From the NCBI GenBank assembly GCA_963934015.1, contig CAWVWT010000005.1, positions 4,692 through 68,691 of the forward strand: a stretch of 64,000 bases of DNA. The letters run 5' to 3'. The position numbers and the translations under genes are program-made. The notes beneath the pieces were generated by a model that saw only the letters and a program-made list of their open reading frames with translations, did no database searches and was not told the origin of the DNA. Source of the stretch: an uncultured Candidatus Poseidoniales archaeon. Lineage in GTDB: Archaea > Thermoplasmatota > Poseidoniia > Poseidoniales > Thalassarchaeaceae. How positions within the stretch are numbered: position 1 is the stretch's first letter; every line of letters begins with the position of its first letter. Shown piece by piece: positions 21,384 to 36,900 of the stretch.

Positions 21384-21406
21384 TACGCCAGTATCAAATT
21401 CTGGAG

Positions 21407-21478: not shown

Positions 21479-21549
21479 TGTGTATTGGGGGGGCCGCGCC
21501 TCAGTCTTATCCAATTCGGTCCGTCCGGTCCCGCAAATTCAAGGAGTGC

Positions 21550-21752: not shown

Positions 21753-22547
21753 CTAAACGGCTTCAATCAATCTTGAAAATCCAAAAATGAAGGGTCGACC
21801 GTCGAGTAATTCCTGCCAATGATGTACTTCAAGTCGAAAATCATGGCAATCATGCGAAAGTACAACCTTCTCACAATTCAGAACCGTAAATGATTGTGGA
21901 GCTACATGCATACCCAATCCACAGGCCTTCAGGACAGCCTCCTTGACCACCCACGTACGAATCGCTTCTTGCATCCCAACCTCTGAATCAACATCCCATA
22001 ATTGTTCTAGATATTGGAGTTCTTCACCAGATGTCATCATCGTCAGCAAGTTCCTAGCACGAGGTACATCAAGAGGTTCTGCATCCAATCCAATTAGTGA
22101 GCCGTTAAGGGATACAGCTGCGATTGAAATTCCGTTTGAATGACCCAATGTGATATCTGGTAATTGCGGACTTAGGTGGCCACCAGCACGAATTCTGACC
22201 TCAGCATCAACCCACATTAGATTGGGCTTACGATACTCATCTCGTACGATTCGCAGATCGGATGGATCAAACCCCATTTCACGGAGGAGGGTGGCCAATG
22301 CATAACGTGCTGATGCATGTTCATTTGCTCTCTTGGATGTTACAAAGGTTGAGGCTTCAAATGCATCGACCAAGGGCACGTTTGATAAATCAGGCAAAGG
22401 ATCAGATGGGTTGCATTCACCAACTGGCATCCATACTGCAATCACTTCATCCAAGCCGCAACCACCGGGGAGTGAAAGCGGGTATACCGAACCTCTCGGA
22501 CGCCATATTTTCATAATAATTCCCCAATTGGAAAAATGATTTTTCAA
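21753..22547 (-). CDS. 4'-phosphopantetheinyl transferase, Sfp/PfaE type
   Basis: Motifs IGLDAEPL (GxD) and WVVKEAVLKACG (WxxKEAxxK). Length about 260 aa. Starts 4 nt after the megasynthase stop. Confidence 0.8.
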   Translation of the reverse strand: MKNHFSNWGIIMKIWRPRGSVYPLSLPGGCGLDEVIAVWMPVGECNPSDPLPDLSNVPLVDAFEASTFVTSKRANEHASARYALATLLREMGFDPSDLRIVRDEYRKPNLMWVDAEVRIRAGGHLSPQLPDITLGHSNGISIAAVSLNGSLIGLDAEPLDVPRARNLLTMMTSGEELQYLEQLWDVDSEVGMQEAIRTWVVKEAVLKACGLGMHVAPQSFTVLNCEKVVLSHDCHDFRLEVHHWQELLDGRPFIFGFSRLIEAV

Positions 22548-22551
22548 TTGA

Positions 22552-25500
22552 TTATTTTCCCTTCCTTTTGAGGCTAAATCTCAATTTTTCAGGAACGGGT
22601 GCCATGCCTTTAAGGCGAAGTCCTTTGAGAGAAACTATCGGTTTCTGATTGCGATCAAAAATCATGGCGTCATGGATTGTAATTCCACCTGCTTCATGAT
22701 CACGACGATAGCTCCGGACCCTCAATTTTTCACGTACCGCCGGGACTCTGAGAATTTTACACTCTTCGATACCAATCGGAAGGCTCGATATTTCATCAAT
22801 TTCCATTGTAACTAAACCCGCATTTTGGAAACAGGCTTCAATCAGCATAGGTAGTGACTCAAGGAGGGCTGGCCCTTCATCAAATAATTGGGAATTAGGC
22901 AATTGACTACGGAGTAGTGCAATTCCATCCGCCCCTAAATCATCACCATCAGATACACCCTTAATCAGACCACCGTGGACTTGAAATCTAGGACCATGGA
23001 AGAATCGATCATAGATGAAATTGGGTTGAAATGAAGCTTCCCCCCTGCCTGGTGAATTCATGAAGGATACACTCGCATCCCGTACGGCCCCCTCCTTGAG
23101 CAAACGTACTATGCCTTCGTGATGTATTCGTGGTTCTCCAAATACTTCACCTTTGGAATTGACTAAATCACTCTCAACATGACACTTGATGTACAGAGAA
23201 TTGTGATCTTGATCACTATATTCCGCTTTCACTCGGACACGGACTTCATCTTTCACCAATTTGATTGGAAGGCCAAATTTGACTTCTGCGAATCCCTCTA
23301 AGTTACACATTGGGTAAAGCAGTAGAGCACTTTGAGCGAACATTTCCATTGCCATCACACCTGGGTGGTAGGGCGTTCCTTCGATAGAATGGTCGATGAG
23401 GAAAGGGAATCTCGCAGTTGAAAGTGTGCACTCGGTGAAGATTTCGGTATACAGGTCATGCTTGAGGATTCGATCTACGAAAGGAAACCTTTCTGATTCC
23501 GAAAGTGCACCGGCGGTATCGGCCGGAAACTTCTGAGGGGGGGCCCTTTTACTGCCTTGATCATCTAATATCCCCAATGCACCTGCGGCTACCACGCGTC
23601 TTTTTCCACCACCAAGCATTTCTTTCACGAAAATTTCAACACCCGTTTCGACGGGGATTGTTTCAATGCCAGCTTGCATGAATACGGATTCCAATGACCC
23701 CCGGGTTGCCATACCAATATCACGCCAACCAGACCAAGCGATGGCTACTGCACGTGGAGCATCTTCGTGATGAGCAATGCGACACATCTCTGCATCGAGG
23801 ATGTTATTGGCGGCGGCATAGTCAACTTGGCCGCTATTCCCAAATCGGCCGGCGACCGAAGTAAATGCACACAAGACCCGTAACTGGTCAAGTTCGTCTT
23901 CCAGGGAATCAACCAAAGCCCGCCAACCATCTATTTTGACCGAGATAACTTTTGTGAAGGTGTCCCATGATTTTTCGGCGACTAATTTCGAATCCTCAAG
24001 TCCGGCACCATGCACGATGCCGGTAATTGGACCGCATTCTTTTCTCACGGCAGCTATCACTTTGGCGACTGATTTTGAATTCGTTACGTCACACGCATCA
24101 TACAATGCGTGGTTTCCTGTTGCTTGTATGTTGAATATTGTTCTATGAATCTCTAAACTACGCATCTGCTTGTTCCATTCGATATCCCATTCAACCATGG
24201 TGACTTTACCCGATTCACTCTGTGCAATCATCTCATCTCGAAGTTTTAGTTTTCGCTCTTGTAAGGTTGCCTCATCATCTTGAAGCCAATCCTCAATGGT
24301 GGCATCAAGGCGAGTACGCCCAAGGAGAACAAAAGTAGCCCCTGCACTCTTACTCAACTCAGCAGCCCCGACTATACATCTGGCAGTGACCCCTGATCCC
24401 CCGCCAGAAACAACCCACACATCGTCGGCCTGAAGGGGTTTGACATCTTCACTGAGGTCCTCCTCATACAAGCGTAAAGCCCAACGTTTCCCATCACGAG
24501 ATATTCCCACTTCCGATGGAGAGGTTCGACCAAAGGCTTCAGCCCATATTTGGTGTGCTAATGCAGTTGGATCTGCAAGCAATTCGGGGTCAATGTCGAC
24601 TGCACGGCAGCGCAGATGTGGTTTCTCTTTCGCGTAGGATTTGACTATGCCGTGTGCCCCTGCGGCGAGTGCGTTGAAGCGGCTACTGGCATTCCCATGC
24701 CTCCCATCCATTGCACTGACAGACATCACAACCCCATCTTTGATTGAACTAAAGTGGGGGTCTAGAGATTTCAGTAACCCAAACAGACCATGCGTTGTAG
24801 ACGTAAGTTGCGCCTGTTGTGTCTGGCTTTCCCAACCAACTCCTGCGAGGCGGAGGGGTGATAGATGAAGTAATGCAACAACATTCCCAATCTTTGCAAG
24901 GTGAGCGCTGACTTCTGCAAGTTGTTTGTGGTTCCCTGGATTCACTCGGACAATATCAACTGGGCCATCCTTCTCGATTTTGATTTTGGAGACTATACTC
25001 GGGTCGAGCATGATGCGAACTGTGTCAATCCCAGCAGCCCCTAAGATATGGCACAGTGTGTCTGCTACACCCCATGGGTCGTCGGTTACGGCAACCACCT
25101 TGCCATCTATATCGAGAGGCGTTGCTGCTTCAGGTGGGACTTCCTCGACCTCAACTTGCCACCGCCTAACACCAATTGTGCCGGGTTCGATTGGAATAAT
25201 GTTTGATACAGGGTTCTGTTGGCCTTCAGGTAGTTCACTTTGGATAGGTTCTTCGACGACTTCTTCACTCCCTTCTTGCCCCAAATATGCAATCATGTGG
25301 TTGAGCGTTGGATGTTCGCTCAAGACAAACGATTCATCTACAGGCAATCCGTAGAAATCTCGGAGTTCAGCCATGATTTCGGCTTGTTTTACAGTGTCAA
25401 TTCCAAGTTCACCCTCAAGGTCCTGATCTAATTCGATAAAATCAGCAGGATAGCCTGTATGCTTGACCACAACTTCGACTACTTTCATTGCAACATCACC

Positions 25501-28500
25501 TGAAATCGGGGTACTAACTTGAATGGCCGGCGCTTCTACTATACCCGATTCAGCAATCACAATCGGTTCAAGGGAGGGAGGTTCAGTAGAGGGGCCTACA
25601 CCCAAATATGCAATCATGTGGTTGAGCGTTGGATGTTCGCTCAAGACAAACGATTCATCTACAGGCAATCCGTAGAAATCTCGGAGTTCAGCCATGATTT
25701 CGGCTTGTTTTACAGTGTCAATTCCAAGTTCACCCTCAAGGTCCTGATCTAATTCGATAAAATCAGCAGGATAGCCTGTATGCTTGACCACAACTTCGAC
25801 TACTTTCGTCCCCACAGTACTTGACGGGAGGGGGGAGTTCACTTCGATTACCTCCTTGGCAGTAGCAGTAGGTTGAGGTTTGGGTTTGAGTTTGGGAATC
25901 GGTTCGGGTCGTATCCCTACATCTTGTTTAGCAACCGCCCAAGGTGTGCCTTGAATACCACCAATAATCATCTCATTGGGATTGATGTAAGCTACAAGTT
26001 TACGATTCAAGATGCGTAAATCAGCATCACCACCTGCTGCCTTTGAGGTCCAATCAGCAATTTGAGTACGGTTCAACCTATCGAGGTGTTTCGCAATCCG
26101 CTTGACCATGGTAAATGCCATTTGTGAACCGAATCCGGCAGCATGACGAACAACATACTCAACGTCAACAGGTCCACCCATAGATAGACGAAGATCACCC
26201 AATTCTGGATCAGGCTCTTTGAAATTGGCAATCGGGGGAAATTCACCCTGACACAGACCCCGTATCGAGACGGCATCTTCGATTCCCGTACCCATTGGAT
26301 GGCCTGTGAATCCTTTCGTATTCGTGATGATAATCTCTGATGCACTGTCTCCGAATGTTCTGCGGAGAGCTTGAATTTCTGCAGCGGCAGAACCGCCCCG
26401 AGGGGGGGTTGCCGGTTCGTGTGACATGAAAGAGGTGCGTGAGGCGATTGAATGACGATCCAAATCCCAATCTCGTTCCATCTTTGAAATGAAGAAATCC
26501 AATGAATTCGATACGTGATCAACATCAAGCCGTGTCGGGTGATATGCGGAATTGGCTAGATGAGTACCGAGAAGTTCGACATATGGCGTCACCCCCCGTT
26601 CCAAACTGAGGTTATTACGCTCGATGACGAAGGCTGCCGCACCCATTCCAAGCAACATCCCACTTCTGCGTGCATCAAATGGAAGGCTGACATCCTCCAC
26701 TACGTTGCCCATAGCATGGGCGCCTGCAGCAGCAAATCCAGAACCAATCCAAGTCATCAATTCATCACTGGTTGCATCATCTGCACTCACGACAATGACA
26801 CGGTCACAACGACCTGTCGTGAGCCAATCCTCTGCAATTGCAATGGCCGAGGGTGTTGAGGCACAGGCATTGTTTATCGCAGCATTGGGACCTCTTGCAC
26901 CAATCAACTGTGCAAATTGTGAATGGCCCATCGTTAGAATTTGTAATAGGAAGCGACGATCAAAATGACCACTTTCATCCGCCCCATTATTCTGTGCATG
27001 GCGCATCGCTTGATCGATTCCAGGGAAACATGAGGCAAAGATGACCCCGGTTCGATCTCGTTCTGATTCAGGGAGGTGCCACTGCTGGATATGGCGTTTT
27101 CCTGCTTTATTGATTTGTTCGACTGCAATCAATGGCAGACCCGCATCCTTGAGTGCTTCAACGCCCGCAGCGATTGCTAAGGATGTTGATATGTCCATGG
27201 CTTCAACAACTTTAGGATCAACACCGTATTGTTCGGCCAAATCGAAGTGACCCTTCTGGCCAGCAAGTTGTGGAATTAAACTGAAATCGTTACAAGGTAC
27301 AAATTCTGCGGATCCATCTGCGTGTTTTATAATTCGAACCAAATTTCGATCAAGAAGCCGCTGCTTAACTTCATCTGAAAGTTGAGAAATAAAATTGTCC
27401 CCACGAATAATTCGATCAAATGTATCTGGCGCAAACACCTCTTCCATTCCAGGTAAACCCAAACTGATGCCACTGAATACATAGGGATTCTCGCGGCGGG
27501 AGGACAAGGGATCTATTACAGCAGTATTTCGACGGACATCTATACCTTGATTCAGGGTGGGTGAACTACGTGGCACCTCATCCAACCATTCGACCAAAGC
27601 GGGGAGGGTCTTCGCGTTTGTACTCCCCTTCACCCGATAATTGGATTGTATTTTTTGATATATCTCAGAAATCTTTGTTTCACTTAATCCAATGGTTTCG
27701 AAATTTGTTGACCCGTGAATCATTCGTAGCGGGAAACCACTCACATTTGACACGATCTTGGCAATCGCAATTTCTTTCGATCTTCGTTCAACTTCGTCCT
27801 GTTCTTCTTTATTGAATGACTGTACATTCGCTTGAGGGGGAATTATACTAGCCTCAACTGTGATTGGGCCTTGAATGAAGCCCGGTGTTGAAATCCGTAC
27901 ACCTGCTTTGAATGCCTCAGTGAGTATGTTGCTATCTGCATCAGGCATATTTGGAATTCTACCTGAGAGGGCGTGGACTGCAAGGGCTGCATGGAAAGAA
28001 GCAATACCCCCCACCTTGGGATGATTTGTATTTGTCACAATCTTTGGTCGTTCTTCGAATATTTGTTCTGCGAATAAAGCCAAGGCGCGTTTTGGTCCGA
28101 CTTCAACGAAAAGACGGGCGCCGGCAGCATACATTGTTTCCATTTGCTTTGTCCATTCAACAGTAGAGGCCATTTGTGGGGCAAGCTTGGATAGAATTGC
28201 TTCCTTGGGACTACTTCCAGCTGGTGCCACATTAGGGTACCAACCTCCATCGAAATTTGAAGTGGTTGGGATTTGCGGTAATTGGATTTCTAAACCCTCA
28301 AGAAAATTTCGCAATGGTTCATTGGCTGGAGCGACAATTCGCGAATGGAATGCGTGACTAGTCTGTAGTTGTATACAGGGGGTACCGGCTTGTTCAAATT
28401 TCTTCATTACGCGCTTCATCGGTTCTGTTTCACCTGCGATGACGGTCATTTTTGGGCTATTTTTGTTAGCAGCAATCACGTACCCATCTTCGGCCTGCAG

Positions 28501-30837
28501 TGCGGCTTCAATCTGTTCGTAAGGTGCTGATACGGAGGCCATGATACCGCAATCCGGCACCTCGACACCACCCATTTCGGTACCACGTGCTGCTACTGCA
28601 CGTAGCGCACTATCGAAATCAAGTATCCCGGCAACCATCAATGCTGCATATTCTCCCAAAGAATGACCTGCAACCATATCGGGTTCAAGTCCGTGTGCTT
28701 TCATCAGACGATACAGGCCGAGGTCAGCGGTCAGCATCGCCGGCTGAGTATACTCGGTTTGTTTGAGTTTGGATTCTGATTCTTTCCTCTCAGCCTCAGA
28801 AAGGTTTTCGCGAAGCACGAATGAAGACAACGTTTCACCATCGAGGACTTCGATCATTGTACTATCAGCTTCATCCCAAGTTTCTCCAATGCAACCATAA
28901 CGCTTAGACAAATCAAGTGTCATGCCAACATATTGACTACCTTGACCGGGATAGAGATGCGCGACCTTAGCGTGGTCAGGTAGTGACGCCGTGTCGGTAA
29001 TCATCACCATTTGTTTAGCCAAAAAGTCCCATTTTGAACGATCATCAATCGACTTATCTAGTAGATCAAATCGCTTTGAAAGTTGAGCCCAATCACTGGC
29101 GACAATCGCACACCGAATACCCTCTGCGGTATAACCTCGGCTTGCCAAAGGTAGAGCAGTTGAAAGTCGCTTTCCATGGGGGTCATTGTCGAAATTCGAG
29201 CCACTAAACAAGTCGTTACGGATTCTACTGAGTTTGGCAATGAGTGATTTACTATCTGGGGCATTCACGAGAAGAACCCCCCCCTCGATATCCTTCAATT
29301 CGTCATGGGATAATGTAGCCGTGGATGAAACCGTTGTCGGCACCATTGCACCGGGGTTCAGCCATGCTGCACGGCGGGCATCAAACTCATTTGCGACAAG
29401 TAAATGAAAATCTCGATCATAGGACTCAATGGCACAATGGAAATTTGTGCCACCAAATCCAAACGATGACACCCCCGCTCGACGAGGATGTCCGTTTGGT
29501 GTAATCCATGGTTTAGGTTCTGTCGGGACATAAAATGGATTCGTGCCCCAATCAATATTTTCATTAGGTGTAGAAAAACCTGCACTGGGTGGTATTGTGG
29601 CAGTATGAACTGCTCGAATAGCCTTGACCAATCCTGCGATTCCGGCTGCTGCTTTGAGGTGCCCAATTTGACTCTTGATTGAACCAACTGCAACCGATTG
29701 CCCTGCGGGCGTATTTTCAAATGCTGAAGATAAACTGGTCAATTCGGTTGCATCACCGACAACTGTCGATGTTCCGTGGGCTTCGATCAATTCGACTGTG
29801 GATGAATCGTAACCAGCCTGCATATAGGCACGGCTAACCGCTTGGATTTGACCGCGGGTACTCGGTGCAGTGATGCCTTTGCCACGACCATCGCTACTCG
29901 CCCCCACGCCACGAATGACCGCTTGAATCGCGTCTCCATCTCTGATTGCATCTGAGAGTCGTTTCAATGTGAGGGCCCCCGAACCTTCACCCATGACAAA
30001 TCCATTCGCCTTGATGTCAAAGGGTGTTGAATGAGTCGCTGAAAGAGCGCCAATTGCGCTGAACTTTGCGAAGGTTGCTGGATCCATTGTACGATCGCTT
30101 GCTCCGGCCACCATCAAATCGACTTGCCGTGTTTGTAGCAATCGGCAGGCATCGAGTACAGCAGCAAAGGTAGAGGCGCAGGCTGCATCGGTGGAATAAT
30201 TCGGCCCCTGTAAATCAAGAAGGTTAGCAACACGTCCTGAAACAACGTTGGCAAGTTCACCTGGCATCGTATCTTCTGTCACCAACGGAAGTCCATCGAG
30301 AATAGCTGCTTTGAACGCTGCTTTGCCTTCACTGGGCATCCCACCAGCTTCAACTGCGTGCCGAGCGAACTGATCTGCCCATATTCTATGATTGGATAAA
30401 TTACGATTCTCACCCCCTAGTGCATTTGCGAATATCACACCAGTACGAGCACGCGGTAATTCCTTGCCGCCTTCACCCATGTATCCTGCATCTTCCAATG
30501 CCGCTGCACTGACTGTAACTGCCCACTGCTGAGTTAGGTCGATTTGCGGGAGTGAACCAGGTGGGACTTTCCAACGTCTCCAATCGAATTCGTAATTCTC
30601 AATCCAACCGCCAATTTTCGAATAGGTCTTGTTGGCGTCGACATTCTTCGGCCCTCCTTCGACCCAAAAGTCAGAGGAAACCCACCGGTGGTCTGGGACT
30701 TCCTTTATCGATACTTTCGCCGACAAAATGTTTGACCAAAACGCATCTACATCGAGTGCATCCGGCAACAGAGTTGCAACACCGATGACAGCAACCGGTT
30801 CAAACGGATCTTGCGGATTTTCATCAAGGATTGTCAA
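22552..30837 (-). CDS. PUFA-synthase / type I PKS-FAS-like megasynthase, KS-AT-KS-ACP-ACP-KR-DH
   Basis: KS1 nt 29428..30804 (DAACAST, EAHGTST, SQIGHLKAAAG). AT 28063..28965 (YPGQGSQ, GHSLGEY, HAFHS). Degenerate carrier-like segment 27574..27786. KS2 26098..27489 (NNACASTPS, MSHEPATPP, GFTGHPMGTG). ACP-like 25600..25806 and 25279..25485 (LGIDTVKQAEI). KR 23698..24423 (SGGGSGV, YAAAN). DH 22603..23490 (HSIEGTPYHP). No TE domain seen. Confidence 0.9.
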   Translation of the reverse strand: MTILDENPQDPFEPVAVIGVATLLPDALDVDAFWSNILSAKVSIKEVPDHRWVSSDFWVEGGPKNVDANKTYSKIGGWIENYEFDWRRWKVPPGSLPQIDLTQQWAVTVSAAALEDAGYMGEGGKELPRARTGVIFANALGGENRNLSNHRIWADQFARHAVEAGGMPSEGKAAFKAAILDGLPLVTEDTMPGELANVVSGRVANLLDLQGPNYSTDAACASTFAAVLDACRLLQTRQVDLMVAGASDRTMDPATFAKFSAIGALSATHSTPFDIKANGFVMGEGSGALTLKRLSDAIRDGDAIQAVIRGVGASSDGRGKGITAPSTRGQIQAVSRAYMQAGYDSSTVELIEAHGTSTVVGDATELTSLSSAFENTPAGQSVAVGSIKSQIGHLKAAAGIAGLVKAIRAVHTATIPPSAGFSTPNENIDWGTNPFYVPTEPKPWITPNGHPRRAGVSSFGFGGTNFHCAIESYDRDFHLLVANEFDARRAAWLNPGAMVPTTVSSTATLSHDELKDIEGGVLLVNAPDSKSLIAKLSRIRNDLFSGSNFDNDPHGKRLSTALPLASRGYTAEGIRCAIVASDWAQLSKRFDLLDKSIDDRSKWDFLAKQMVMITDTASLPDHAKVAHLYPGQGSQYVGMTLDLSKRYGCIGETWDEADSTMIEVLDGETLSSFVLRENLSEAERKESESKLKQTEYTQPAMLTADLGLYRLMKAHGLEPDMVAGHSLGEYAALMVAGILDFDSALRAVAARGTEMGGVEVPDCGIMASVSAPYEQIEAALQAEDGYVIAANKNSPKMTVIAGETEPMKRVMKKFEQAGTPCIQLQTSHAFHSRIVAPANEPLRNFLEGLEIQLPQIPTTSNFDGGWYPNVAPAGSSPKEAILSKLAPQMASTVEWTKQMETMYAAGARLFVEVGPKRALALFAEQIFEERPKIVTNTNHPKVGGIASFHAALAVHALSGRIPNMPDADSNILTEAFKAGVRISTPGFIQGPITVEASIIPPQANVQSFNKEEQDEVERRSKEIAIAKIVSNVSGFPLRMIHGSTNFETIGLSETKISEIYQKIQSNYRVKGSTNAKTLPALVEWLDEVPRSSPTLNQGIDVRRNTAVIDPLSSRRENPYVFSGISLGLPGMEEVFAPDTFDRIIRGDNFISQLSDEVKQRLLDRNLVRIIKHADGSAEFVPCNDFSLIPQLAGQKGHFDLAEQYGVDPKVVEAMDISTSLAIAAGVEALKDAGLPLIAVEQINKAGKRHIQQWHLPESERDRTGVIFASCFPGIDQAMRHAQNNGADESGHFDRRFLLQILTMGHSQFAQLIGARGPNAAINNACASTPSAIAIAEDWLTTGRCDRVIVVSADDATSDELMTWIGSGFAAAGAHAMGNVVEDVSLPFDARRSGMLLGMGAAAFVIERNNLSLERGVTPYVELLGTHLANSAYHPTRLDVDHVSNSLDFFISKMERDWDLDRHSIASRTSFMSHEPATPPRGGSAAAEIQALRRTFGDSASEIIITNTKGFTGHPMGTGIEDAVSIRGLCQGEFPPIANFKEPDPELGDLRLSMGGPVDVEYVVRHAAGFGSQMAFTMVKRIAKHLDRLNRTQIADWTSKAAGGDADLRILNRKLVAYINPNEMIIGGIQGTPWAVAKQDVGIRPEPIPKLKPKPQPTATAKEVIEVNSPLPSSTVGTKVVEVVVKHTGYPADFIELDQDLEGELGIDTVKQAEIMAELRDFYGLPVDESFVLSEHPTLNHMIAYLGVGPSTEPPSLEPIVIAESGIVEAPAIQVSTPISGDVAMKVVEVVVKHTGYPADFIELDQDLEGELGIDTVKQAEIMAELRDFYGLPVDESFVLSEHPTLNHMIAYLGQEGSEEVVEEPIQSELPEGQQNPVSNIIPIEPGTIGVRRWQVEVEEVPPEAATPLDIDGKVVAVTDDPWGVADTLCHILGAAGIDTVRIMLDPSIVSKIKIEKDGPVDIVRVNPGNHKQLAEVSAHLAKIGNVVALLHLSPLRLAGVGWESQTQQAQLTSTTHGLFGLLKSLDPHFSSIKDGVVMSVSAMDGRHGNASSRFNALAAGAHGIVKSYAKEKPHLRCRAVDIDPELLADPTALAHQIWAEAFGRTSPSEVGISRDGKRWALRLYEEDLSEDVKPLQADDVWVVSGGGSGVTARCIVGAAELSKSAGATFVLLGRTRLDATIEDWLQDDEATLQERKLKLRDEMIAQSESGKVTMVEWDIEWNKQMRSLEIHRTIFNIQATGNHALYDACDVTNSKSVAKVIAAVRKECGPITGIVHGAGLEDSKLVAEKSWDTFTKVISVKIDGWRALVDSLEDELDQLRVLCAFTSVAGRFGNSGQVDYAAANNILDAEMCRIAHHEDAPRAVAIAWSGWRDIGMATRGSLESVFMQAGIETIPVETGVEIFVKEMLGGGKRRVVAAGALGILDDQGSKRAPPQKFPADTAGALSESERFPFVDRILKHDLYTEIFTECTLSTARFPFLIDHSIEGTPYHPGVMAMEMFAQSALLLYPMCNLEGFAEVKFGLPIKLVKDEVRVRVKAEYSDQDHNSLYIKCHVESDLVNSKGEVFGEPRIHHEGIVRLLKEGAVRDASVSFMNSPGRGEASFQPNFIYDRFFHGPRFQVHGGLIKGVSDGDDLGADGIALLRSQLPNSQLFDEGPALLESLPMLIEACFQNAGLVTMEIDEISSLPIGIEECKILRVPAVREKLRVRSYRRDHEAGGITIHDAMIFDRNQKPIVSLKGLRLKGMAPVPEKLRFSLKRKGK
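25280..25807. repeat. perfect 207-bp direct repeat (25280..25486 and 25601..25807) encoding the two carrier domains
   Basis: The two copies are identical base for base on comparison, at a 321-nt period (107 aa). They encode identical 69-aa segments KVVEVVVKHTGYPADF...NHMIAYLG. Confidence 0.95.
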
Positions 30838-30846
30838 TTTCTCGCC

Positions 30847-31638
30847 TCAGTCACTGATACTATCCGGTACCATCGTGCTGGAATACCCAGCATCGACATG
30901 GATGATTTGCCCTGTAACACCTGAACCAAGCGGGCTAGATAGCCAAACCGCACAACCTGCAACATCGTCTTGATTGACGTTGCGGCGAAGAGGTGAATTA
31001 CGTTCGACATGGTCGAGAATGTCATCAAATCCTGGAATCCCACCTGCGGCCAAAGTTCGAATTGGACCTGATGAAATTGCATTGACACGATGGCCTTCTT
31101 CGCCGACACGCATAGCCAATTCACGGACCCATGCTTCAAGCGCAGCTTTGGCGATACTCATCACACCGTAATTTGGAACATGCCGAGTACTGGCTGCATA
31201 AGTGAGGGTAATAGTCGAAGAATTTGGCGCAAGATGTGGAAGGGCATGGCGCATGATGCGTTGCAAAGAATGTGCTGAGATTGTCATCGCAGTATTGAGG
31301 GCATCATCTTCGACAAATAGCATGTGCCGATCGAAACATTCCCTCGGGGCAAATCCAATCGCATGTATGACGATGTCAGCCTTGGCTCCTGGTGCCATCT
31401 GTTGCCATTCATGGAAGAATTCAGCAGTGGTTTCCTCGGCAGCTACATCGATTGGATAGAACGCCTCAATGGCCTCAAGTTTATCCTTTAGCTGGAAAAC
31501 TCGACTCATGAATCTCTTCTGATATCCGAGAATTAGTTTGCACCCAGCCTCAGCCAACCGATTGCAAATTGCCCACGCGATGGAATCCTCGGATGCAACC
31601 CCAAACACCAGTGCAGTCTTTCCTTCAAGTTGCAACAT
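30847..31638 (-). CDS. fabI: enoyl-ACP reductase, FabI type (SDR)
   Basis: GKTALVFGVASEDSIAWAICNRLAEAG, a Y-x6-K region (PNYGVMSIAKAALE) and NAISSGPIRTLAA. Stop lies 9 nt before the megasynthase start. Confidence 0.85.
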   Translation of the reverse strand: MLQLEGKTALVFGVASEDSIAWAICNRLAEAGCKLILGYQKRFMSRVFQLKDKLEAIEAFYPIDVAAEETTAEFFHEWQQMAPGAKADIVIHAIGFAPRECFDRHMLFVEDDALNTAMTISAHSLQRIMRHALPHLAPNSSTITLTYAASTRHVPNYGVMSIAKAALEAWVRELAMRVGEEGHRVNAISSGPIRTLAAGGIPGFDDILDHVERNSPLRRNVNQDDVAGCAVWLSSPLGSGVTGQIIHVDAGYSSTMVPDSISD

Positions 31639-31712: not shown

Positions 31713-32612
31713 CTACGGGTCAATTTCACCATACAGTGCGCCGGGCCAGATAGATTGTACGTGATGCAGTAATTCTTCAGTCTGTTCGACATCTATTGTT
31801 CCAAGAAGATTGGAAACTAGTGATTGAGTTCTCTTTGGCACTGTTTTAGGGCCAAGGACTGCACCAGGCCGCGATGGATCATCCAGATAATCGGTTTCCA
31901 TCGTCCATGTAGATGAACAGTGGCGATATGTTTCCATGATTGTAGAAAGGCTATCTTTGCCCATGCTGACAGAAGAGGATAATCCATGTGTGAAGGATTC
32001 ACCAACATTTGCAGCAGCGTAATGGTGTATGGCATGTTTTCGCATCAAACCAGAACGATCACAAATTGTTGCCAATTCAGCATTTGTTTGAGCTCCGTTA
32101 TCCTCAACGTGTAATTGAATGGGGAAGCCTGCCTGAGCGGCCATGTGCATTACCACCTCTAATTGTTTATTTGCGGCACCCCATATCTCATCCGATACGG
32201 GATAATGAGGACGGCCGACTTCCCCAAGAGCAACCGCTTGACCTTCTGCGCAATACTCTAATGCGAGAGCGACTGAATCAATATGGAGTTCAGATGATTT
32301 CTCCAACCCTAGTGTATGAATTTGTTTCTCCCAAACCACTGGGTGTGGCCCCAAGATTACACGGACGTCAATTCCAACCTCTCTTCGAACGGTATTAGCC
32401 ATCTCTAGGGTTCCAATGTATGCTTTTTTGACAGCATTAATTGACTCGGGTAAATTAGAAGGAAAATCAGGTTTGTGGACCAAGCAAAGATGCGTCCCCC
32501 CTGCATTTGCAAAATCTTTGGCAGCAGATACACCTCGCCCACTTGGGTCTAAATGAAGGTGTGTATCCCAAATAGGGCCGGTCCAGCGACCCTCTGTGAT
32601 TGTCATTTTCAT
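31713..32612 (-). CDS. TatD-family / amidohydrolase-fold metal-dependent hydrolase
   Basis: WDTHLHLDP metal motif, later HVEDNG and HHYAA. The ATG at 32612 shares one nt with the upstream stop (TGATG). The track start is 32651. Confidence 0.6.
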   Translation of the reverse strand: MKMTITEGRWTGPIWDTHLHLDPSGRGVSAAKDFANAGGTHLCLVHKPDFPSNLPESINAVKKAYIGTLEMANTVRREVGIDVRVILGPHPVVWEKQIHTLGLEKSSELHIDSVALALEYCAEGQAVALGEVGRPHYPVSDEIWGAANKQLEVVMHMAAQAGFPIQLHVEDNGAQTNAELATICDRSGLMRKHAIHHYAAANVGESFTHGLSSSVSMGKDSLSTIMETYRHCSSTWTMETDYLDDPSRPGAVLGPKTVPKRTQSLVSNLLGTIDVEQTEELLHHVQSIWPGALYGEIDP

Positions 32613-33127
32613 CAACCCAATAGATTCTCGTCGGACAATCGTTGTTTCCATCGGCGAGCGGCCATTGCAACCAATTTCACATGACGCGCTTCGGTTGCAA
32701 TTCCTCGGCCATTTCGGAATAGAAGCATCTTGATTTCGTGCCGATTATCATTGATTTGAAGACAATCCAGTTCAGTGTCTAAAACCGCTTCAGGGTATAA
32801 ATCAGGGACACCTTCGAGCGATACTGTGGCCTCAAAATCAAATGATGCGACCACAGGTCCAACTTCAAAGGTCATACCAGATTCTGCTTCACCAAGGCGC
32901 AATAGTACCTCTTTGGCTGCTAGGTGAGCCAAATCTTGCTTTCGGCAACCGTGTACGATGATTTTTCCATCAGGATCAATCAATAATGTTGCTCGAGGCG
33001 CCACCAAAGATAGGGTCACATACCTTCCACTGCGCTTCCCACCAATCTCATCAACAACTCTCTGAGGGTCGAGAACAAAAGCAGGAGTGAATCTAAACAA
33101 TTGATTCTCCACACGTGCTTCTGTCAT
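32612..33127 (-). CDS. divergent TBP-fold (two-repeat) protein
   Basis: Two halves resemble the TBP repeat cores: ATLLIDPDGKIIVHGCRKQDLAHLAAKEVL and KMLLFRNGRGIATEARHVKLVAMAARRW (compare LLIFSSGKxVxTGAKSxxDxxxAV). The canonical FPG and stirrup residues are not evident. ATGA overlap with the upstream gene. Confidence 0.4.
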   Translation of the reverse strand: MTEARVENQLFRFTPAFVLDPQRVVDEIGGKRSGRYVTLSLVAPRATLLIDPDGKIIVHGCRKQDLAHLAAKEVLLRLGEAESGMTFEVGPVVASFDFEATVSLEGVPDLYPEAVLDTELDCLQINDNRHEIKMLLFRNGRGIATEARHVKLVAMAARRWKQRLSDENLLG

Positions 33128-33942
33128 TCTTCTTCATCCCCTACATGCTCTGGTAATGGTGATTCATTCAGTGCGGAATAGATGCTAGGCATCCAAGCCT
33201 GCATGACTGGCACGAGGAGTACGGGCGTCCCTTCACCATCAATCTGTCCCCCGTAAAGTGTACCCAATGCCCCTCGTAAGCGGGATGCTAGACGGGAATC
33301 TCTGCGTGAACATAATTCTGCTGTAAGCACGGATTCAGAACGCGACCACCAAGCAGCAGCAAGAGCGCTTGCTTGCGCCAATCCGGTGGCCTTTGAATCA
33401 TCACGTTCACATTCAGGTGGGCTTGCATTTTTCATTTCTTCCCGCAGCATCTTTTTCCAAATCCGTCCACTGAAAATAGAACGAACAAGGTGTCGGAGAC
33501 GGACCATTTCATCAGCGCAATCCTCGACCCATTCAGTCCATTCTTCGTCTTCGGGTTCAACAAAAAACACAGGTCTGCATCCAGTCCCTGATGTGCTCTC
33601 TGCTGCCGTCAATAGGCGGCGAGGTTCCGGGTCAGGGAACCGACATGATTGGATGGATTCTATTGAGGACATCCCAAGCATCATTCTCGCCAAAGTCCCA
33701 CCACTGGCTGCAATGGAATCGCGATTGATTCCAGGAGATAACCTCTCTTGTTCCGATTGTTCATCCCAGATTTCAGATTCATCATCAGGCAGCAAGAATG
33801 CCAAACCGTCCCACTCCCCAGCAGTACGTCGAAGCGCACCTGTGTGGACCACATTTGGGATGAAGGGCCATAGACGGATGGTGCCACCACAAGGGTCCAC
33901 CCAATCGATTGGCGACCAACTCAAGGACGCCGAATCCATCAT
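33124..33942 (-). CDS. hypothetical protein (272 aa)
   Basis: ORF with an ATG at 33942, 10 nt after the stop of the giant gene. No motif recognised with confidence. The C-terminal part is faintly TraB/GumN-like. Confidence 0.5.
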   Translation of the reverse strand: MMDSASLSWSPIDWVDPCGGTIRLWPFIPNVVHTGALRRTAGEWDGLAFLLPDDESEIWDEQSEQERLSPGINRDSIAASGGTLARMMLGMSSIESIQSCRFPDPEPRRLLTAAESTSGTGCRPVFFVEPEDEEWTEWVEDCADEMVRLRHLVRSIFSGRIWKKMLREEMKNASPPECERDDSKATGLAQASALAAAWWSRSESVLTAELCSRRDSRLASRLRGALGTLYGGQIDGEGTPVLLVPVMQAWMPSIYSALNESPLPEHVGDEEE

Positions 33943-33952
33943 CGGTTCAACC

Positions 33953-36900
33953 TCATTCTTGCGTTGCGAGCCATTCTTCAAGCTGCTCGACACTCCAACC
34001 CTGATCGAAGTAGTTCTGAATGGTTGCCTCATCCCAGAATGGGAATTTCTCCTTGGCAATATCCATCGGACTCTTCATCGCCGCTGGTGGGCCACGAGAG
34101 GCACCAGGTGGACCTCTTCGTTCACCTGGTCGTGTTGCAGGAGGACCGCGACTTTGCATCGGGGTCACCGGTTGCGCTGCCGGGAGGAAATCATCATCTT
34201 CGATATATTCCAACTCATCATCTTCAACAGTTCTGTTGAGCACCAATAGAACGACAACGATAGCAATTATCAGGACGATTACAACTCCGGCAATACCAAC
34301 ATACAAGCCCGTATTACCACTATCTTCGGCTGCATCAAACTTGGCTACATTAAAGTCATCTGTGCGGATAATCACCTGATTATCCATATCCAAAATGGTG
34401 TAATTGACATTTGTCACTGCATTCGGGAATTGAGGCATTGCAATTCGCCATCGGTAATCATCACCTGGTTGAACACTGGTTGGGCATATGCGCTCTTCCG
34501 GTGAACTGGCCACACCATCAATCCATGTCACAATTTGGATTCTGAAATCGCCTTCCTTGTTACCCTCATTCGTGAAATCAATCAAAAGGTCGAATTCGGT
34601 TTCGGCCATTGGCCTATCGACTGATAGATCAATCCGATCAATCTTGAATTTCGCTGATTCATAAGCAATTTCATAGGTCCCAGCACCACTGTTGACCGAG
34701 TTTCCGAATGAACCGGCACCATTGATGGTCTGTCCAGCTGTATCATGACCCGTTAGCCAGAACTTAACAATCACATTCTCCATATCATCAGGGATGGGTT
34801 GTACTGAATCCCATAAGTCAAAACAAGTAGATGTCGCACGTATTCGGCCTTGGGATGATTCCAGATACAACTGTGTACTTTCCCAACCGGGACCATCTTC
34901 AAATGTATTCAGATATTCCGTCCAATTGTACTCAAATCCACCAACCTCTTGGGTCTTGTAGAACATCCAATTCAATTGTACTGAATCAACGTTCATCCCT
35001 TGCAGTTCGTCAATGAAAATTTCTGCATCGAGACAGCCCATCACCGATGAAGAAATACTACCATCTATGCTATCACCCGTCATGGAATTGGACAAATCCC
35101 ATGAACCGAAAACTGCGTCTGGTCTGTCACCATCTACCTTGACGATAAATGATCGTGAAGGTGCAGGGGTGTTGTCTAGAGCACCCTCTGGCATACCGAG
35201 CAATTCCATTGTGTAACTGTACTCATTGGTTGCAGATGCGGCAGGTATAATCAATTGGAAAGAACCATTGTTGAATTCATATTCGTTCACATCTACCAAA
35301 GCTGGAGAATAACCACTGTCAGGCAATCCTGCAGGATAGAGTGGTGACCGTGTAACCTGTAATGTGAGCGGAATCTCGGGGCCAACGAAAATCAAATCGT
35401 TCATCCCTGCACTAAACACATATCGACCCTCAATCACTAAGATGTCCCCTTGGTAAACGAATCCCCCTGATTGAGTTCCGACGCCATCAGTTGGGAATCC
35501 TGATGTATCCTCCACACTGAAAGTTGTCGTATCAAGTTCAATACCACTTGCGTAGGACCAACGTTGAGGGTTTCGAGCGGCACTAATGTGCACCTCGTTA
35601 TTGTTGAGATCCTTATCCTTCATCCCAACATCTGGTGTTTTAACACCACCAACATACGACAGCGGAATCGACCAGAACATACGAATTGGGACATCTAGAG
35701 TGAATTGCTGCTCAAATGGTGAAATCAGAACGTTACCCTCACGCGTGAGCATCCGTGGTTTGATACCAGTGTTTTCATAATCATCCAAGATTTCAATCCA
35801 AGTACTGTTCGTCCACGCTGTATCATTTTGTGGTGAGTAGAAGATTTCTATGCACCCCTCAGGGTCATATGTTTGCACCATTGAAGGATTACAGATAGAG
35901 GGATTCATTGTAATGCGAATCATCTCAATATCTTGCCATCCATTGTCATCCTTTCCATCAACCATCAGGTGATACATGTTACCTGCATAAATCGAACGAT
36001 TGTTCTCGTTAAGCATGGCCCCATGTGAGTCTGAAATGTGGAACCCTTCAACCAAGGGTGTCCGACTTTCCATGGCGATGTAAGTTACCAAATCTTCATT
36101 GACACCTGCGCTACCACCATCAATTTGGTTGCCACCAATATCTCCACCAGAGACGAATAGACTAACCATCTGGGGGGGGTCGATTCCACTGTTTTCATAA
36201 TCGCTGATACATTCACAGGGATGATCGATAAGATAGTATGAGGTGTCCGCTAAAGTTTGTCGTACAAGACCGATTTGTGTATATTCATTCAATTGGGCTT
36301 CCCGATCTTTCTCACCAGTATCGGCATTGATGTACCCTGGGTCAGTTGGACATAGACCATCAAGACCACAATCATCTGAGAATTCTATCCAATAATTGAG
36401 TGTCAATGTCTCGGGTGCGACTGGTAAATCTTGGGCCGCTATTCTGAACTTCTGATTGGAAGATGCCTTCACCCACGTATCATCGGTTAAGTCACGCCAA
36501 TCACCTTGCACACTGAATACTGAGATGTTCATCAGATGAGGTGCAAATGGGTCTAGTGTAATCGAAAATCGGATGGCGCAGTCACTATCTGGATTGAAGC
36601 TACCTGGTGGGCAGATGGTATCGCCATCAGTGTAATTGGACATGAGTAATCGATACTGCTCGTTACCTGCTTCTGATGCTGGTAGATTGGGTTGCCATGA
36701 ATAATCCCCATCAATGGTTGCAGGTGTTGAATCAACAAACAACCAATCCTCAAATGTGAGTTCAGACTGATTGCGCTTCTCCAATAGAACTTGGTAACTA
36801 CCGGGGTTGGGTACAACATCCAAATCTTCGTATCGAATATTAAAATCCAGTGTAATGGTGTTACTTGAGAATGCATTGGTCAAATCCATCTGTTCAACTC

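What the first reader, a model, noticed from the sequence alone, without database searches (positions are those of the whole stretch)
21753..31638. ACP-dependent PUFA-synthase/type I FAS-PKS-like assembly line embedded in an archaeal chromosome
Three minus-strand genes are separated by only 4-10 nt: fabI (30847..31638), a 2761-aa megasynthase (22552..30837) and an Sfp/PfaE-type PPTase (21753..22547). By motif reading, the megasynthase runs as follows: KS (DAACAST, EAHGTST, SQIGHLKAAAG); malonyl-type AT (GHSLGEY, HAFHS); a second KS; two carrier domains; KR (YAAAN); PKS/PUFA-type DH (HxxxGxxxxP = HSIEGTPYHP). With FabI acting in trans, this is a complete condensation-reduction cycle. No thioesterase or other release domain is present. 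The carrier sequence (KHTGYPADFIELDQDLEGELGID.VKQAEI) is in the style of PfaA ACPs. The context is archaeal on both sides: Nop5, fibrillarin, TFS and PCNA at 14.6-17.6 kb, Orc1/Cdc6 at 49 kb, and a TBP-fold gene in the same gene string. Archaea are generally regarded as lacking ACP, holo-ACP synthase and type I FAS/PKS. Such an operon would therefore bear on fatty-acid or ester-lipid capacity and the 'lipid divide' in marine euryarchaea, or it would define a new archaeal polyketide/lipid product.
Basis: partly seen in the sequence, partly recalled or inferred. Interest (0 to 1): 0.9.

Follow-up and report, generated by a model that had tools for sequence, protein, structure and literature searches.

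The report
Archaeal fatty-acid megasynthase with threonine carriers
A marine Group II archaeon carries a native, order-wide conserved operon for a giant fatty-acid-synthase-like enzyme, its activating enzyme and a reductase, machinery archaea are usually said to lack, and its carrier domains have threonine where every textbook carrier protein has the essential serine.

Summary
Three co-directional genes encode a FabI-type enoyl reductase, a 2761-aa KS-AT-KS2-carrier×2-KR-DH megasynthase and a divergent Sfp-type PPTase, among archaeal housekeeping genes. It is not a chimera. Composition and codon usage match the flanks, and the gene string recurs in 31 MAG loci from both Poseidoniales families.

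1. Both carrier domains have Thr, not Ser, at the phosphopantetheine site. This holds in 283/283 MGII carrier domains, and all four Thr codons are used.
2. KS2 is FabF-like with an intact Cys-His-His triad, so it is not a chain-length factor.
3. The operon belongs to a large family in Thermoplasmatota, Asgard, Bathyarchaeia, Chloroflexota, Bacteroidota and Acidobacteriota. Thr outnumbers Ser about 20–50:1 there. The PPTase is adjacent or fused, and acetyl-CoA carboxylase is adjacent in the two contexts with wide flanks.

Its architecture matches the bacterial "Type R secondary lipid synthase" of Shulse & Allen (2011), whose product is unknown. I found no paper describing archaeal members or the Thr site.

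Most likely it is an iterative type I synthase making saturated acyl chains on Thr-linked phosphopantetheine. Product, release step and Thr modification are all inferred.

The parts
30847..31638 (-). FabI-type enoyl reductase, acting in trans as the ER
   Evidence: PF13561 226 bits. The best NCBIfam hits are all FabI equivalogs, though below their curated cut-offs. 192 bits to Thermus FabI 1ULU, with the TY...NY...AK catalytic residues aligned. It lies directly upstream of the megasynthase in every MGII locus that reaches that far.
22552..30837 (-). 2761-aa megasynthase: KS1-AT-KS2-carrier-carrier-KR-DH
   Evidence: 120 full-length MGII homologues at 53-99% identity. All catalytic residues are invariant in 50/50 family members, apart from near-invariant DH Pro/Glu/Gln.
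29416..30801 (-). KS1 (residues 13-474), PKS-type. Cys220, His354, Lys388, His393
   Evidence: PF00109, PF02801 and PF16197. Best PDB matches are PKS KS-AT didomains, 404 bits to 7ZMA. Catalytic residues invariant.
28054..28956 (-). Acyltransferase (residues 628-928). GHSLG Ser726 and an HAFH motif
   Evidence: PF00698 125 bits, motifs, Ser726 invariant. Reading HAFH as malonyl-specific comes from established knowledge of AT motifs and was not tested here. The first His of HAFH varies in the family (H 26, A 22).
26098..27270 (-). KS2 (about residues 1190-1580), FabF-like, with Cys1325, His1433, His1473, Lys1508 and His1513 intact
   Evidence: Best PDB hits are all FabF; 99 bits to 4DDO, with the catalytic residues aligned. 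Residues invariant in 50/50.
25603..25806 (-). Carrier domain 1 (residues 1678-1745). Thr1708 (ACT, 25714-25716) at the Ppant site
   Evidence: PF00550. Thr aligns with the Ppant-Ser of PigH ACPs and S. aureus AcpP. Codon read.
25282..25485 (-). Carrier domain 2 (residues 1785-1852). Thr1815 (ACT, 25393-25395) at the Ppant site
   Evidence: Second PF00550 stretch. 224-nt direct repeat, 97% identical, spacing 321 nt. 207/210 nt identical over the domain core.
23719..24144 (-). Ketoreductase catalytic subdomain (residues 2232-2373). Lys2301, Ser2327, Tyr2340, Asn2344
   Evidence: PF08659 93 bits. 66 bits to PKS KR 3SLK. Residues invariant.
22609..23448 (-). PKS-type double-hotdog dehydratase (residues 2464-2743). 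His2483...Pro2492 and Glu2667xxxGln2671
   Evidence: PF21089 28.5 bits and PF14765 30 bits, both above gathering score. His invariant; Pro, Glu and Gln near-invariant.
21753..22547 (-). Divergent Sfp-type 4'-phosphopantetheinyl transferase (probable start at Met12, 22514)
   Evidence: PF01648 36 bits. No sequence match to any solved PPTase. AF2 model pLDDT 92, with top folds AASDHPPT 2CG5, Sfp 4MRT, PptAb, PptT and PcpS at about 17% identity. G-L-D-A-E and W-V-V-K-E-A-V-L-K motifs are invariant. Directly downstream of the megasynthase in all MGII loci that extend past its 3' end.
31713..34059 (-). Three conserved upstream genes in the same string: TatD-like hydrolase (31713-32651), divergent TBP-fold protein (32612-33127) and an unannotated protein (33124-34059, probable start 33942). 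Their link to the synthase is unknown.
   Evidence: Pfam. The order o1961-o311-TBP-like-TatD-FabI-MEGA-PPT is kept in both MGIIb and MGIIa loci. MGIIa has one extra gene before FabI. The unannotated protein has invariant FPDPEPRR and RD.R.A.R.RGAL motifs, and no fold could be assigned.

Best explanation
This is the MGII member of a widespread family of iterative type I fatty-acyl synthases. The family has two ketosynthases and threonine-type carrier domains.

Proposed mechanism:
1. The adjacent divergent Sfp-type PPTase transfers 4'-phosphopantetheine from CoA onto the hydroxyl of Thr1708 and Thr1815 of the two tandem carrier domains. This step is inferred, and Thr is not a described acceptor.
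2. The AT loads malonyl units from malonyl-CoA.
3. KS1 (PKS-type) and KS2 (FabF-type), both catalytically intact, carry out the decarboxylative condensations. They probably divide the work by chain length or by priming versus elongation, as the two KS of PUFA synthases do (inferred).
4. KR, the PKS-type DH and the separately encoded FabI complete each reduction cycle.
5. No FabA-type dehydratase/isomerase is encoded in the string or its scanned flanks, so the product should be a saturated, or at most trans-unsaturated or hydroxylated, straight acyl chain, not a PUFA.
6. Release is not encoded in the operon. It must be done in trans, by a thioesterase such as the 4HBT protein 9 kb away, by a glycerolipid acyltransferase, or by AT-mediated transfer to CoA (speculative).

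The operon is native and ancestral to Poseidoniales. It most plausibly supplies fatty acyl chains for the ester-type or mixed lipids that others have predicted for MGII from their G3P dehydrogenase and PlsC homologues.
For: - Domain order and intact active sites. Every catalytic residue of KS1, AT, KS2 and KR, and the DH His, is invariant in 50/50 family members from archaea and bacteria; DH Pro, Glu and Gln are near-invariant.
- Native, not chimeric: tetranucleotide correlation of the operon windows to the rest is 0.90-0.94, against 0.79-0.94 elsewhere, and codon-usage r is 0.94. The seven-gene string is conserved in 31 loci from independent MAGs of MGIIa and MGIIb, on contigs up to 1.16 Mb. 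MGII is monophyletic and nearest to other Thermoplasmatota in a rough NJ tree.
- Thr is the functional acceptor. It aligns with the Ppant-Ser of solved ACPs. It holds in 283/283 MGII domains, 420 T against 16 S and 424 T against 8 S family-wide. No other conserved Ser or Cys exists in the domain.
- All four Thr codons are used, although Ser is one nucleotide away.
- Ser and Thr carriers coexist in single polypeptides that carry one fused PPTase (P0278, P0280, P0283; also P0382).
- PPTases paired with Ser-only, Thr-only and mixed carriers share the same catalytic motifs.
- The PPTase is adjacent or fused across lineages.
- Fatty-acid rather than polyketide role: relatives sit next to acetyl-CoA carboxylase, biotin ligase and BioY or to ACC subunits. 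Shulse & Allen note the same for Koribacter. The window also holds biotin carboxylase and a PPAT/DPCK fusion.
- Literature: MGII lack G1P dehydrogenase but have G3P dehydrogenase and PlsC homologues.
Against: - No experiment of any kind supports the model. The product, chain length and release step are unknown.
- The field treats the acceptor as an invariant serine (PMC12551638). From memory, unverified here, E. coli ACP S36T is not modified by AcpS. Thr-phosphopantetheinylation is therefore unprecedented and could be wrong.
- No thioesterase or acyltransferase lies in the conserved string.
- FabI scores below the NCBIfam equivalog cut-offs.
- The window was not checked for expression.
- I could not check whole MGII genomes for FAS II genes, a free ACP, or PlsX/PlsY/PlsC.
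- Shulse & Allen class the family as 'secondary' lipid synthases.
- The NJ tree has no support values and no outgroup.
Confidence: 0.68

Rival explanations
1. The enzymology is the same, but the product is a specialised 'secondary' lipid or polyketide-like molecule, such as a very-long-chain hydroxy or keto alkyl chain, a hydrocarbon precursor, a glycolipid aglycone or a surface lipid. It would not be bulk membrane fatty acid.
For: - Shulse & Allen place the architecture-matched Type R cluster among secondary lipid synthases with uncharacterised products, and suggest host-specific modification.
- Tandem carrier domains and a PfaA-like layout are typical of Pfa, Hgl and Ars systems.
- In MGIIb, an MsbA/HepA-like ABC exporter and a GT2 glycosyltransferase lie just downstream.
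- A trans ER could be used selectively.
- Many bacterial hosts of the family (Chloroflexota, Acidobacteriota) presumably also have FAS II (my assumption, not checked).
Against: - The ABC exporter is separated from the operon by a convergent ORF and a tRNA gene, and it is not adjacent in MGIIa.
- ACC, BPL and BioY adjacency in relatives points to bulk malonyl-CoA demand.
- The operon is order-wide and vertically kept, unlike typical patchy secondary-metabolite clusters.
- A 2024 preprint says archaea have no known FAS I or II, so any fatty acid MGII make de novo by an ACP route would have to come from here.
Confidence: 0.25
2. The Thr carrier domains cannot be phosphopantetheinylated and are structural relics. 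The enzyme then works on CoA-bound or otherwise free substrates, or it is inactive.
For: The acceptor is described as an invariant Ser. From memory, a Ser-to-Thr change blocks AcpS on E. coli ACP. Archaea have an ACP-independent, CoA-based fatty acid synthesis route.
Against: - The motif DQDLEGELGIDTVKQAE is identical in 283/283 MGII domains, under synonymous turnover.
- The domains are kept in 1-4 (MGII) or up to 6 tandem copies.
- A PPTase with intact catalytic motifs is always adjacent or fused, including in all-Thr proteins.
- Ser and Thr alternate at exactly this one position.
- A relic would not show this pattern.
Confidence: 0.05
3. The operon is a bacterial insert, either an assembly or binning chimera or a recent horizontally transferred island in this one genome.
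For: The enzyme classes (FabI, PfaA-like, Sfp-type PPTase) are typically bacterial. One related locus is labelled Verrucomicrobiales (L031). Bacterial family members exist.
Against: - There is no GC, tetranucleotide or codon-usage break.
- The same archaeal flanks recur in independent MAGs from many samples and assemblers, on contigs up to 1.16 Mb.
- The operon is present in both MGIIa and MGIIb with divergence that parallels the flanking genes.
- The nearest relatives are other Thermoplasmatota.
- L031 carries the MGIIa-type string and is more likely misbinned.
Confidence: 0.02

Closest known systems
'Type R' secondary lipid synthase cluster (Shulse & Allen 2011, PLoS ONE 6:e20146; hosts Koribacter, Solibacter, Elusimicrobium, Roseiflexus)
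   Same: A single pfaA homologue with KS-MAT-second KS ('CLF')-tandem ACPs-KR, followed by a PPTase gene. An association with acetyl-CoA carboxylase is noted. The product is uncharacterised. The family found here includes members from Roseiflexaceae (Kouleothrix) and Terriglobales, the taxa of the Type R hosts.
   Different: - The host is archaeal, and the operon is inherited across the whole order.
- A FabI gene is fused into the operon.
- The C-terminal PKS-type DH is recognised here.
- The second KS keeps Cys-His-His, so 'CLF' is a misnomer.
- The Thr at the Ppant site is not mentioned in the paper (0 occurrences of 'threonine' and of 'archaea').
- I had no Type R reference sequences, so there was no direct comparison.
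PUFA synthase PfaABCDE (Type A/B) and its PfaA subunit
   Same: PfaA-like order KS-AT-ACPn-KR-DH, tandem carrier domains, an Sfp-type PPTase in the cluster, and an iterative mechanism. KS1 matches the PUFA-synthase KS structure 6RIW at 246 bits.
   Different: - An extra FabF-like KS lies inside the same polypeptide.
- There is no PfaB AT, no PfaC KS-CLF with FabA-type DH pair, and no PfaD NMO-type ER. FabI takes that role here.
- Carriers read LGIDT where PfaA has LGIDS (the PfaA motif is from my own knowledge).
- No cis-double-bond chemistry is encoded.
Fungal and Corynebacterineae type I FAS
   Same: A self-contained iterative FAS on one or two polypeptides. Fungal FAS carries its own PPTase domain, as the Asgard and Thermoplasmatota relatives of this protein do. 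The fold search picks up fungal FAS PPT domains weakly.
   Different: The domain order and barrel architecture are unrelated. Those enzymes use an FMN ER and an MPT for release to CoA, and a Ser acceptor. In MGII the PPTase and ER are separate genes.
Archaeal ACP-independent fatty acid synthase complex (bioRxiv 10.1101/2024.07.05.601840)
   Same: It is proposed to make fatty acids de novo in archaea.
   Different: That system uses thiolase/DUF35, SDR, MaoC-type and MDR enzymes on CoA thioesters, with no carrier protein and no PPTase. The paper states that archaea lack FAS I, FAS II, ACP and ACP synthase. The MGII operon is the opposite design.

Membership tests
Type R secondary lipid synthase (Shulse & Allen 2011) | One pfaA homologue with the order KS-MAT-'CLF'-ACP(3-6)-KR | tested here: met
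   KS-AT-KS2-carrier×2-KR(-DH). MGII homologues have 1-4 carriers. KS2 occupies the 'CLF' position but keeps the active-site Cys.
Type R secondary lipid synthase (Shulse & Allen 2011) | PPTase gene directly downstream | tested here: met
   The PPTase lies 4-37 nt downstream, and in all MGII loci that extend past the 3' end of the megasynthase.
Type R secondary lipid synthase (Shulse & Allen 2011) | KS phylogenetic clustering with the Type R reference proteins (Roseiflexus, Koribacter, Solibacter, Elusimicrobium) | not tested
Indirect support: full-length homologues from Roseiflexaceae (Kouleothrix) and Terriglobales are in the family.
PUFA synthase (Pfa, Type A/B) | PfaC-type KS-CLF with two FabA-type DH/isomerase domains | tested here: not met
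   No such gene was found among the window ORFs of 100 aa or more that were scanned with Pfam. The only DH is the PKS type.
PUFA synthase (Pfa, Type A/B) | PfaD-type (NMO/FabK-like) enoyl reductase | tested here: not met
   The ER partner is FabI (SDR). NMO domains occur only in some Asgard and bacterial relatives.
PUFA synthase (Pfa, Type A/B) | PfaA-like subunit and a PfaE-like PPTase in the cluster | tested here: met
Phosphopantetheine-dependent carrier protein (PP-binding, PF00550) | Four-helix carrier domain matching the family profile | tested here: met
   PF00550 67.5 bits, two stretches. Aligns to the PigH ACP didomain and to AcpP.
Phosphopantetheine-dependent carrier protein (PP-binding, PF00550) | Conserved Ser at the N-terminus of helix II as the Ppant acceptor | tested here: not met
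   Thr1708 and Thr1815. Thr in 283/283 MGII domains and in more than 95% of family domains.
Phosphopantetheine-dependent carrier protein (PP-binding, PF00550) | Actual 4'-phosphopantetheinylation (holo form) | not testable with these tools
   This needs mass spectrometry of the carrier domain co-expressed with the PPTase.
Sfp-type (group II) PPTase | Two-lobed pseudo-dimeric fold with Mg/CoA-binding Asp/Glu and the W/F-x-x-K-E-A/S-x-x-K motif | tested here: met
   AF2 model pLDDT 92. Foldseek E values 3e-10 to 1e-6 against AASDHPPT, Sfp, PptAb, PptT and PcpS. G-L-D-A-E and W-V-V-K-E-A-V-L-K are invariant. Sequence similarity to solved PPTases is undetectable.
FabI enoyl-ACP reductase | SDR with the Tyr-x6-Lys catalytic pair, scoring as a FabI equivalog | tested here: inconclusive
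   All top NCBIfam and PDB hits are FabI, and the Tyr/Tyr/Lys residues align. However, 226 bits is below every curated FabI equivalog cut-off (299-477).
Chain-length factor (KS-beta) | KS-like domain lacking the active-site Cys | tested here: not met
   KS2 has Cys1325, His1433 and His1473, invariant in 50/50 family members.

The most novel reading that the evidence does not exclude
Two linked claims. First, the carrier domains of this family are natively phosphopantetheinylated on threonine by a co-evolved, highly divergent Sfp-type PPTase. I could not find this carrier-protein chemistry described anywhere. Second, the synthase is the principal de novo source of fatty acyl chains in Poseidoniales, and its PPTase-fused relatives play the same role in Heimdallarchaeia and other Asgard and Thermoplasmatota archaea. 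If both hold, abundant archaea, including the lineage closest to eukaryotes, would own a carrier-dependent type I FAS. That contradicts the current statement that archaea lack FAS I, FAS II, ACP and ACP synthase.
Probability: 0.3. Interest if true: 0.95.

Novelty: new variant of a known kind. Interest (0 to 1): 0.8.

Why it matters
[quoted passage not shown] They lack G1P dehydrogenase but have G3P dehydrogenase and PlsC homologues.

A native, order-wide, catalytically intact type I acyl synthase with its own PPTase and FabI is the missing upstream half of a possible ester-lipid or mixed-membrane pathway. It makes that idea directly testable by expressing three genes.

The same family, often fused to its PPTase and next to acetyl-CoA carboxylase, occurs in Heimdallarchaeia and other Asgard archaea. 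It therefore bears on the archaeal-to-bacterial membrane transition in eukaryogenesis.

Separately, the near-universal Thr at the phosphopantetheine site challenges the 'invariant serine' rule of carrier-protein biochemistry. It also matters for annotation: BGC and ACP predictors and active-site checks may score these domains as dead. And it matters for PPTase engineering.

Tried and rejected
- **Hidden ACP between AT and KS2.** The MGII stretch 'FETIGLSETKISEI' looked ACP-like. Pfam finds nothing there and the region is not conserved across the family, so a bimodular reading was rejected.
- **o311 as the missing release enzyme.** Pfam and NCBIfam give nothing. A profile of 11 orthologues against PDB gives nothing. 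This stays unresolved.
- **ABC exporter as part of the operon.** It is separated by a convergent ORF and tRNA-Gly, and it is not adjacent in MGIIa, so it was rejected as a core part.
- **Homologue search with the bacterial member P0154.** It timed out.
- **Tandem Repeats Finder on the carrier repeat.** It found nothing. The repeat finder did find the repeat.
- **Literature.** Ten full-text searches found no paper on an MGII or Asgard type I FAS/PKS with ACP and PPTase, and none on Thr as a Ppant acceptor. Rinke 2019 and Tully 2019 do not mention the gene. Villanueva 2017, Martin-Cuadrado 2015, Herlemann 2009 and the Beld PPTase review were not held, so prior description there cannot be excluded.
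- **PUFA-synthase reading.** Rejected, because no FabA-type DH, PfaC or PfaD was found.

Full report
**1. Observation**

Pfam gives, for the 2761-aa protein:
- ketoacyl-synt N and C plus the KS-AT linker, residues 13-474
- Acyl_transf_1, 628-928
- a second ketoacyl-synt stretch, with an ACP_syn_III hit at 1321-1357
- two PP-binding stretches
- KR, 2232-2373
- when the C-terminus is scanned alone, both halves of a PKS dehydratase: PKS_DH_N at 2464-2545 and PS-DH at 2640-2743, each above its gathering score

All quoted motifs are present. The upstream gene is a FabI-type SDR. It scores 226 bits on PF13561, and all top NCBIfam and PDB hits are FabI. It scores 192 bits against Thermus FabI with the Tyr/Tyr/Lys residues aligned. 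It falls below NCBIfam's curated equivalog cut-offs.

The downstream gene is a PPTase (PF01648, 36 bits). It is so divergent that no solved PPTase is detectable by sequence. An AlphaFold model built on 22 MGII orthologues (pLDDT 92) nevertheless matches human AASDHPPT, Sfp, PptAb, PptT and PcpS, at E values of 3e-10 to 1e-6 and about 17% identity. The G-L-D-A-E and W-x-x-K-E-A-x-x-K motifs are invariant.

No thioesterase domain is present. The archaeal context is real: fibrillarin, Nop5, TFS, PCNA and Orc1/Cdc6.

**2. Not an artefact**

GC content, tetranucleotide composition and codon usage of the operon cannot be told apart from the flanks. Windows overlapping the operon correlate at 0.90-0.94 with the rest of the window, against 0.79-0.94 elsewhere. 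The megasynthase codon usage correlates at 0.94 with flanking genes.

A scan of one genome per GTDB species returned 31 loci. Thirty are labelled Poseidoniales, Thalassarchaeaceae, Poseidonia or MGII. The one labelled Verrucomicrobiales carries the MGIIa-type string.

The order o1961, o311, TBP-like, TatD-like, FabI, megasynthase, PPTase is kept in MGIIb and, at 30-55% protein identity, in MGIIa. MGIIa has one extra gene before FabI. Homologues sit on contigs up to 1.16 Mb. The operon is therefore ancestral to the order.

**3.

The dot is Thr, with ACT codons at 25714-25716 and 25393-25395. HMMER alignments to the PigH ACP didomain, S. aureus AcpP and another ACP place this Thr on the Ppant-accepting Ser of LGVDS, LGIDS and LGADS.

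- In 120 MGII homologues (53-99% identity), all 283 carrier domains read DQDLEGELGIDTVKQAE.
- Across loci, all four Thr codons are used (ACG 22, ACT 17, ACA 11, ACC 11), although Ser is one substitution away. This indicates selection for Thr itself.
- No other Ser or Cys is conserved in the domain.

**4. The family**

I ran an exhaustive HMMER search of 1.84 billion cluster representatives, using KS2 plus the carriers as the query. It found 933 representatives below E = 1e-30. The top 150 are 0.6-4 kb-scale multidomain proteins, and nearly all of those with a recognisable carrier motif carry LG[IV]DTVKQ[AV]E: 382 Thr against 16 Ser.

Labelled members come from:
- Archaea: Heimdallarchaeota, Kariarchaeaceae and 'Asgard group', non-MGII Thermoplasmatota, Bathyarchaeia.
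- Bacteria: Chloroflexota (Kouleothrix, Chloroploca, Oscillochloris, Anaerolineae, Caldilineaceae), Bacteroidota (Lewinellaceae, Saprospiraceae), Leptospiraceae, Terriglobales, and a Zixibacteria-labelled MAG.

Most archaeal members carry the PPTase as a C-terminal domain, and several carry an N-terminal NMO-type ER.

Sampled contexts:
- A Thr-type protein with fused PPTase lies directly after acetyl-CoA carboxylase BC, BCCP and CT genes, with an Arf-family GTPase nearby.
- A bacterial member lies next to biotin ligase, a 1941-aa ACC fusion and BioY.
- Thr-type and Ser-type members have a PPTase one or two genes downstream.

A few members have Ser at the site. *Heimdallarchaeum* proteins combine Ser- and Thr-type carriers with one fused PPTase in a single polypeptide. 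PPTases partnered with Ser-only, Thr-only and mixed carriers share the same catalytic motifs.

Taken together, Thr looks like a competent acceptor for this PPTase clade rather than a dead site. This is comparative inference, not proof.

**5. Active sites**

In a 50-sequence family alignment, these residues are invariant:
- KS1: Cys220, His354, Lys388, His393
- AT: Ser726
- KS2: Cys1325, His1433, His1473, Lys1508, His1513
- KR: Lys2301, Ser2327, Tyr2340, Asn2344
- DH: His2483

DH Pro2492, Glu2667 and Gln2671 are near-invariant (48-49/50).

KS2 is closest to FabF. Because it keeps the Cys, it is a true ketosynthase, not a chain-length factor.

**6. Mechanism**

Shown by sequence: every activity of a condensation-reduction cycle is present and intact, with the ER in trans and a dedicated PPTase. 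No FabA-type isomerase, PfaC, PfaD or TE was found in the genes I scanned.

Inferred:
- The PPTase loads Ppant onto Thr1708 and Thr1815.
- The AT loads malonyl. The HAFH motif is usually read as malonyl-specific, which is established knowledge I did not test here.
- The two KS share the elongation work.
- The product is a saturated or little-modified acyl chain.
- Release happens in trans.

ACC adjacency in relatives, the window's biotin carboxylase and its PPAT/DPCK fusion fit a bulk fatty-acid role. So do published inferences that MGII lack G1P dehydrogenase but have G3P dehydrogenase and PlsC homologues. A specialised 'secondary lipid' product remains a serious rival.

**7. Comparison with what is known**

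Shulse & Allen (2011) defined a 'Type R' secondary lipid synthase: one pfaA homologue with KS-MAT-CLF-ACP(3-6)-KR plus a downstream PPTase. They found it in Koribacter, Solibacter, Elusimicrobium and Roseiflexus, with an uncharacterised product and an ACC gene inside the Koribacter cluster. The architecture matches. The family here also includes Roseiflexaceae and Terriglobales members. I therefore file the MGII operon as a Type R-like synthase, although I could not compare it directly with the reference proteins.

That paper mentions neither archaea nor threonine. The main MGII genomics papers do not mention the gene. One Shark Bay study notes a Heimdallarchaeota PKS nearest to PUFA KS domains. 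A 2024 preprint still states that archaea lack FAS I, FAS II, ACP and ACP synthase. PPTase papers describe the acceptor as an invariant serine. Public annotation labels these proteins 'SDR family oxidoreductase' or 'Pks15/1'.

**8. Verdict**

It is corrected on the carrier residue, on the nature of KS2, on the PUFA label and on uniqueness.

Novelty: a new archaeal variant, with a FabI partner, of a catalogued but uncharacterised bacterial family. It comes with a family-wide, apparently unreported Thr at the Ppant site.

A rough NJ tree, with no support values or outgroup, puts MGII nearest to other Thermoplasmatota and groups Chloroflexota, Bacteroidota and Asgard members separately. That hints at long residence rather than recent transfer.

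Interest is high (0.8). Three genes suffice to test both an unusual carrier chemistry and a long-standing question about archaeal fatty-acid synthesis.

Noticed in passing
window 12196-12924 (-): A clear Lgt homologue (prolipoprotein diacylglyceryl transferase, PF01790, 82.6 bits, near full-length). It is conserved at 79-88% identity in MGIIb loci. Lgt uses diacylglycerol phospholipid as donor, so its presence in an archaeon fits, and depends on, bacterial-type acyl lipids.
   Followed up: partly
window 21406-21478 (-) and 21454-21747 (+): tRNA-Gly(TCC) lies between the PPTase and the ABC exporter. It overlaps the start of a conserved 97-aa ORF on the opposite strand that has two hydrophobic segments. 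This marks the 3' end of the operon.
   Followed up: partly
window 33953-39838 (-): A 1961-aa ORF with no Pfam hit heads the conserved gene string. It is recognisable at about 32% identity in MGIIa loci. Its function is unknown.
   Followed up: no
window 32612-33127 (-): A 171-aa TBP-fold protein scores only 35 bits on PF00352, far below the NCBIfam TBP cut-offs. It is a divergent TBP paralogue, always located between o311 and the TatD-like gene.
   Followed up: no
window 33124-34059 (-): A conserved unannotated protein (probable start at 33942) with invariant FPDPEPRR and RD.R.A.R.RGAL motifs across MGIIa and MGIIb. No family or fold could be assigned.
   Followed up: yes
window 40642-41175 (+): A 4HBT hotdog-fold thioesterase next to ThiI, present at the same place in the MGIIb loci whose flank reaches it. 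It is a candidate trans-acting release enzyme, but it was not seen within 10 kb in MGIIa loci.
   Followed up: partly
window 52029-53036 (-) and 45113-46477 (-): A fused phosphopantetheine adenylyltransferase-like plus DUF359 protein, and a biotin carboxylase. I read DUF359 from memory as the archaeal dephospho-CoA kinase. If so, these supply the Ppant donor (CoA) and malonyl-CoA respectively.
   Followed up: no
window 3560-8802 (+) and 62290-63150 (+): An acyl-CoA ligase, an IcmF-like fused B12 mutase-MeaB protein and an enoyl-CoA hydratase. These are acyl-CoA metabolism genes in the same neighbourhood.
   Followed up: no
L024 21832-22485 (-): In the MGIIa (Poseidonia) locus, a CDP-archaeol synthase (CarS) gene lies three genes downstream of the PPTase. 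Isoprenoid-lipid and acyl-synthase genes are therefore neighbours there.
   Followed up: no
L031 (labelled Verrucomicrobiales); P0303 (Zixibacteria); P0348 ('bacterium'): These bacterial-labelled records carry MGIIa-type or archaeal-clade, PPTase-fused versions of the synthase. They are likely misbinned archaeal contigs, or else cases of inter-domain transfer.
   Followed up: partly
window 25280-25824: The two carrier domains are a 224-nt direct repeat, 97% identical, spaced 321 nt apart. MGII homologues show 1-4 copies, so short-read assemblies may have collapsed copies and the true number here could be higher.
   Followed up: partly
window 58067-58675 (+): A 202-aa protein with several CCHC zinc knuckles, a motif more familiar from eukaryotic and retroviral nucleic-acid-binding proteins.
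   Followed up: no
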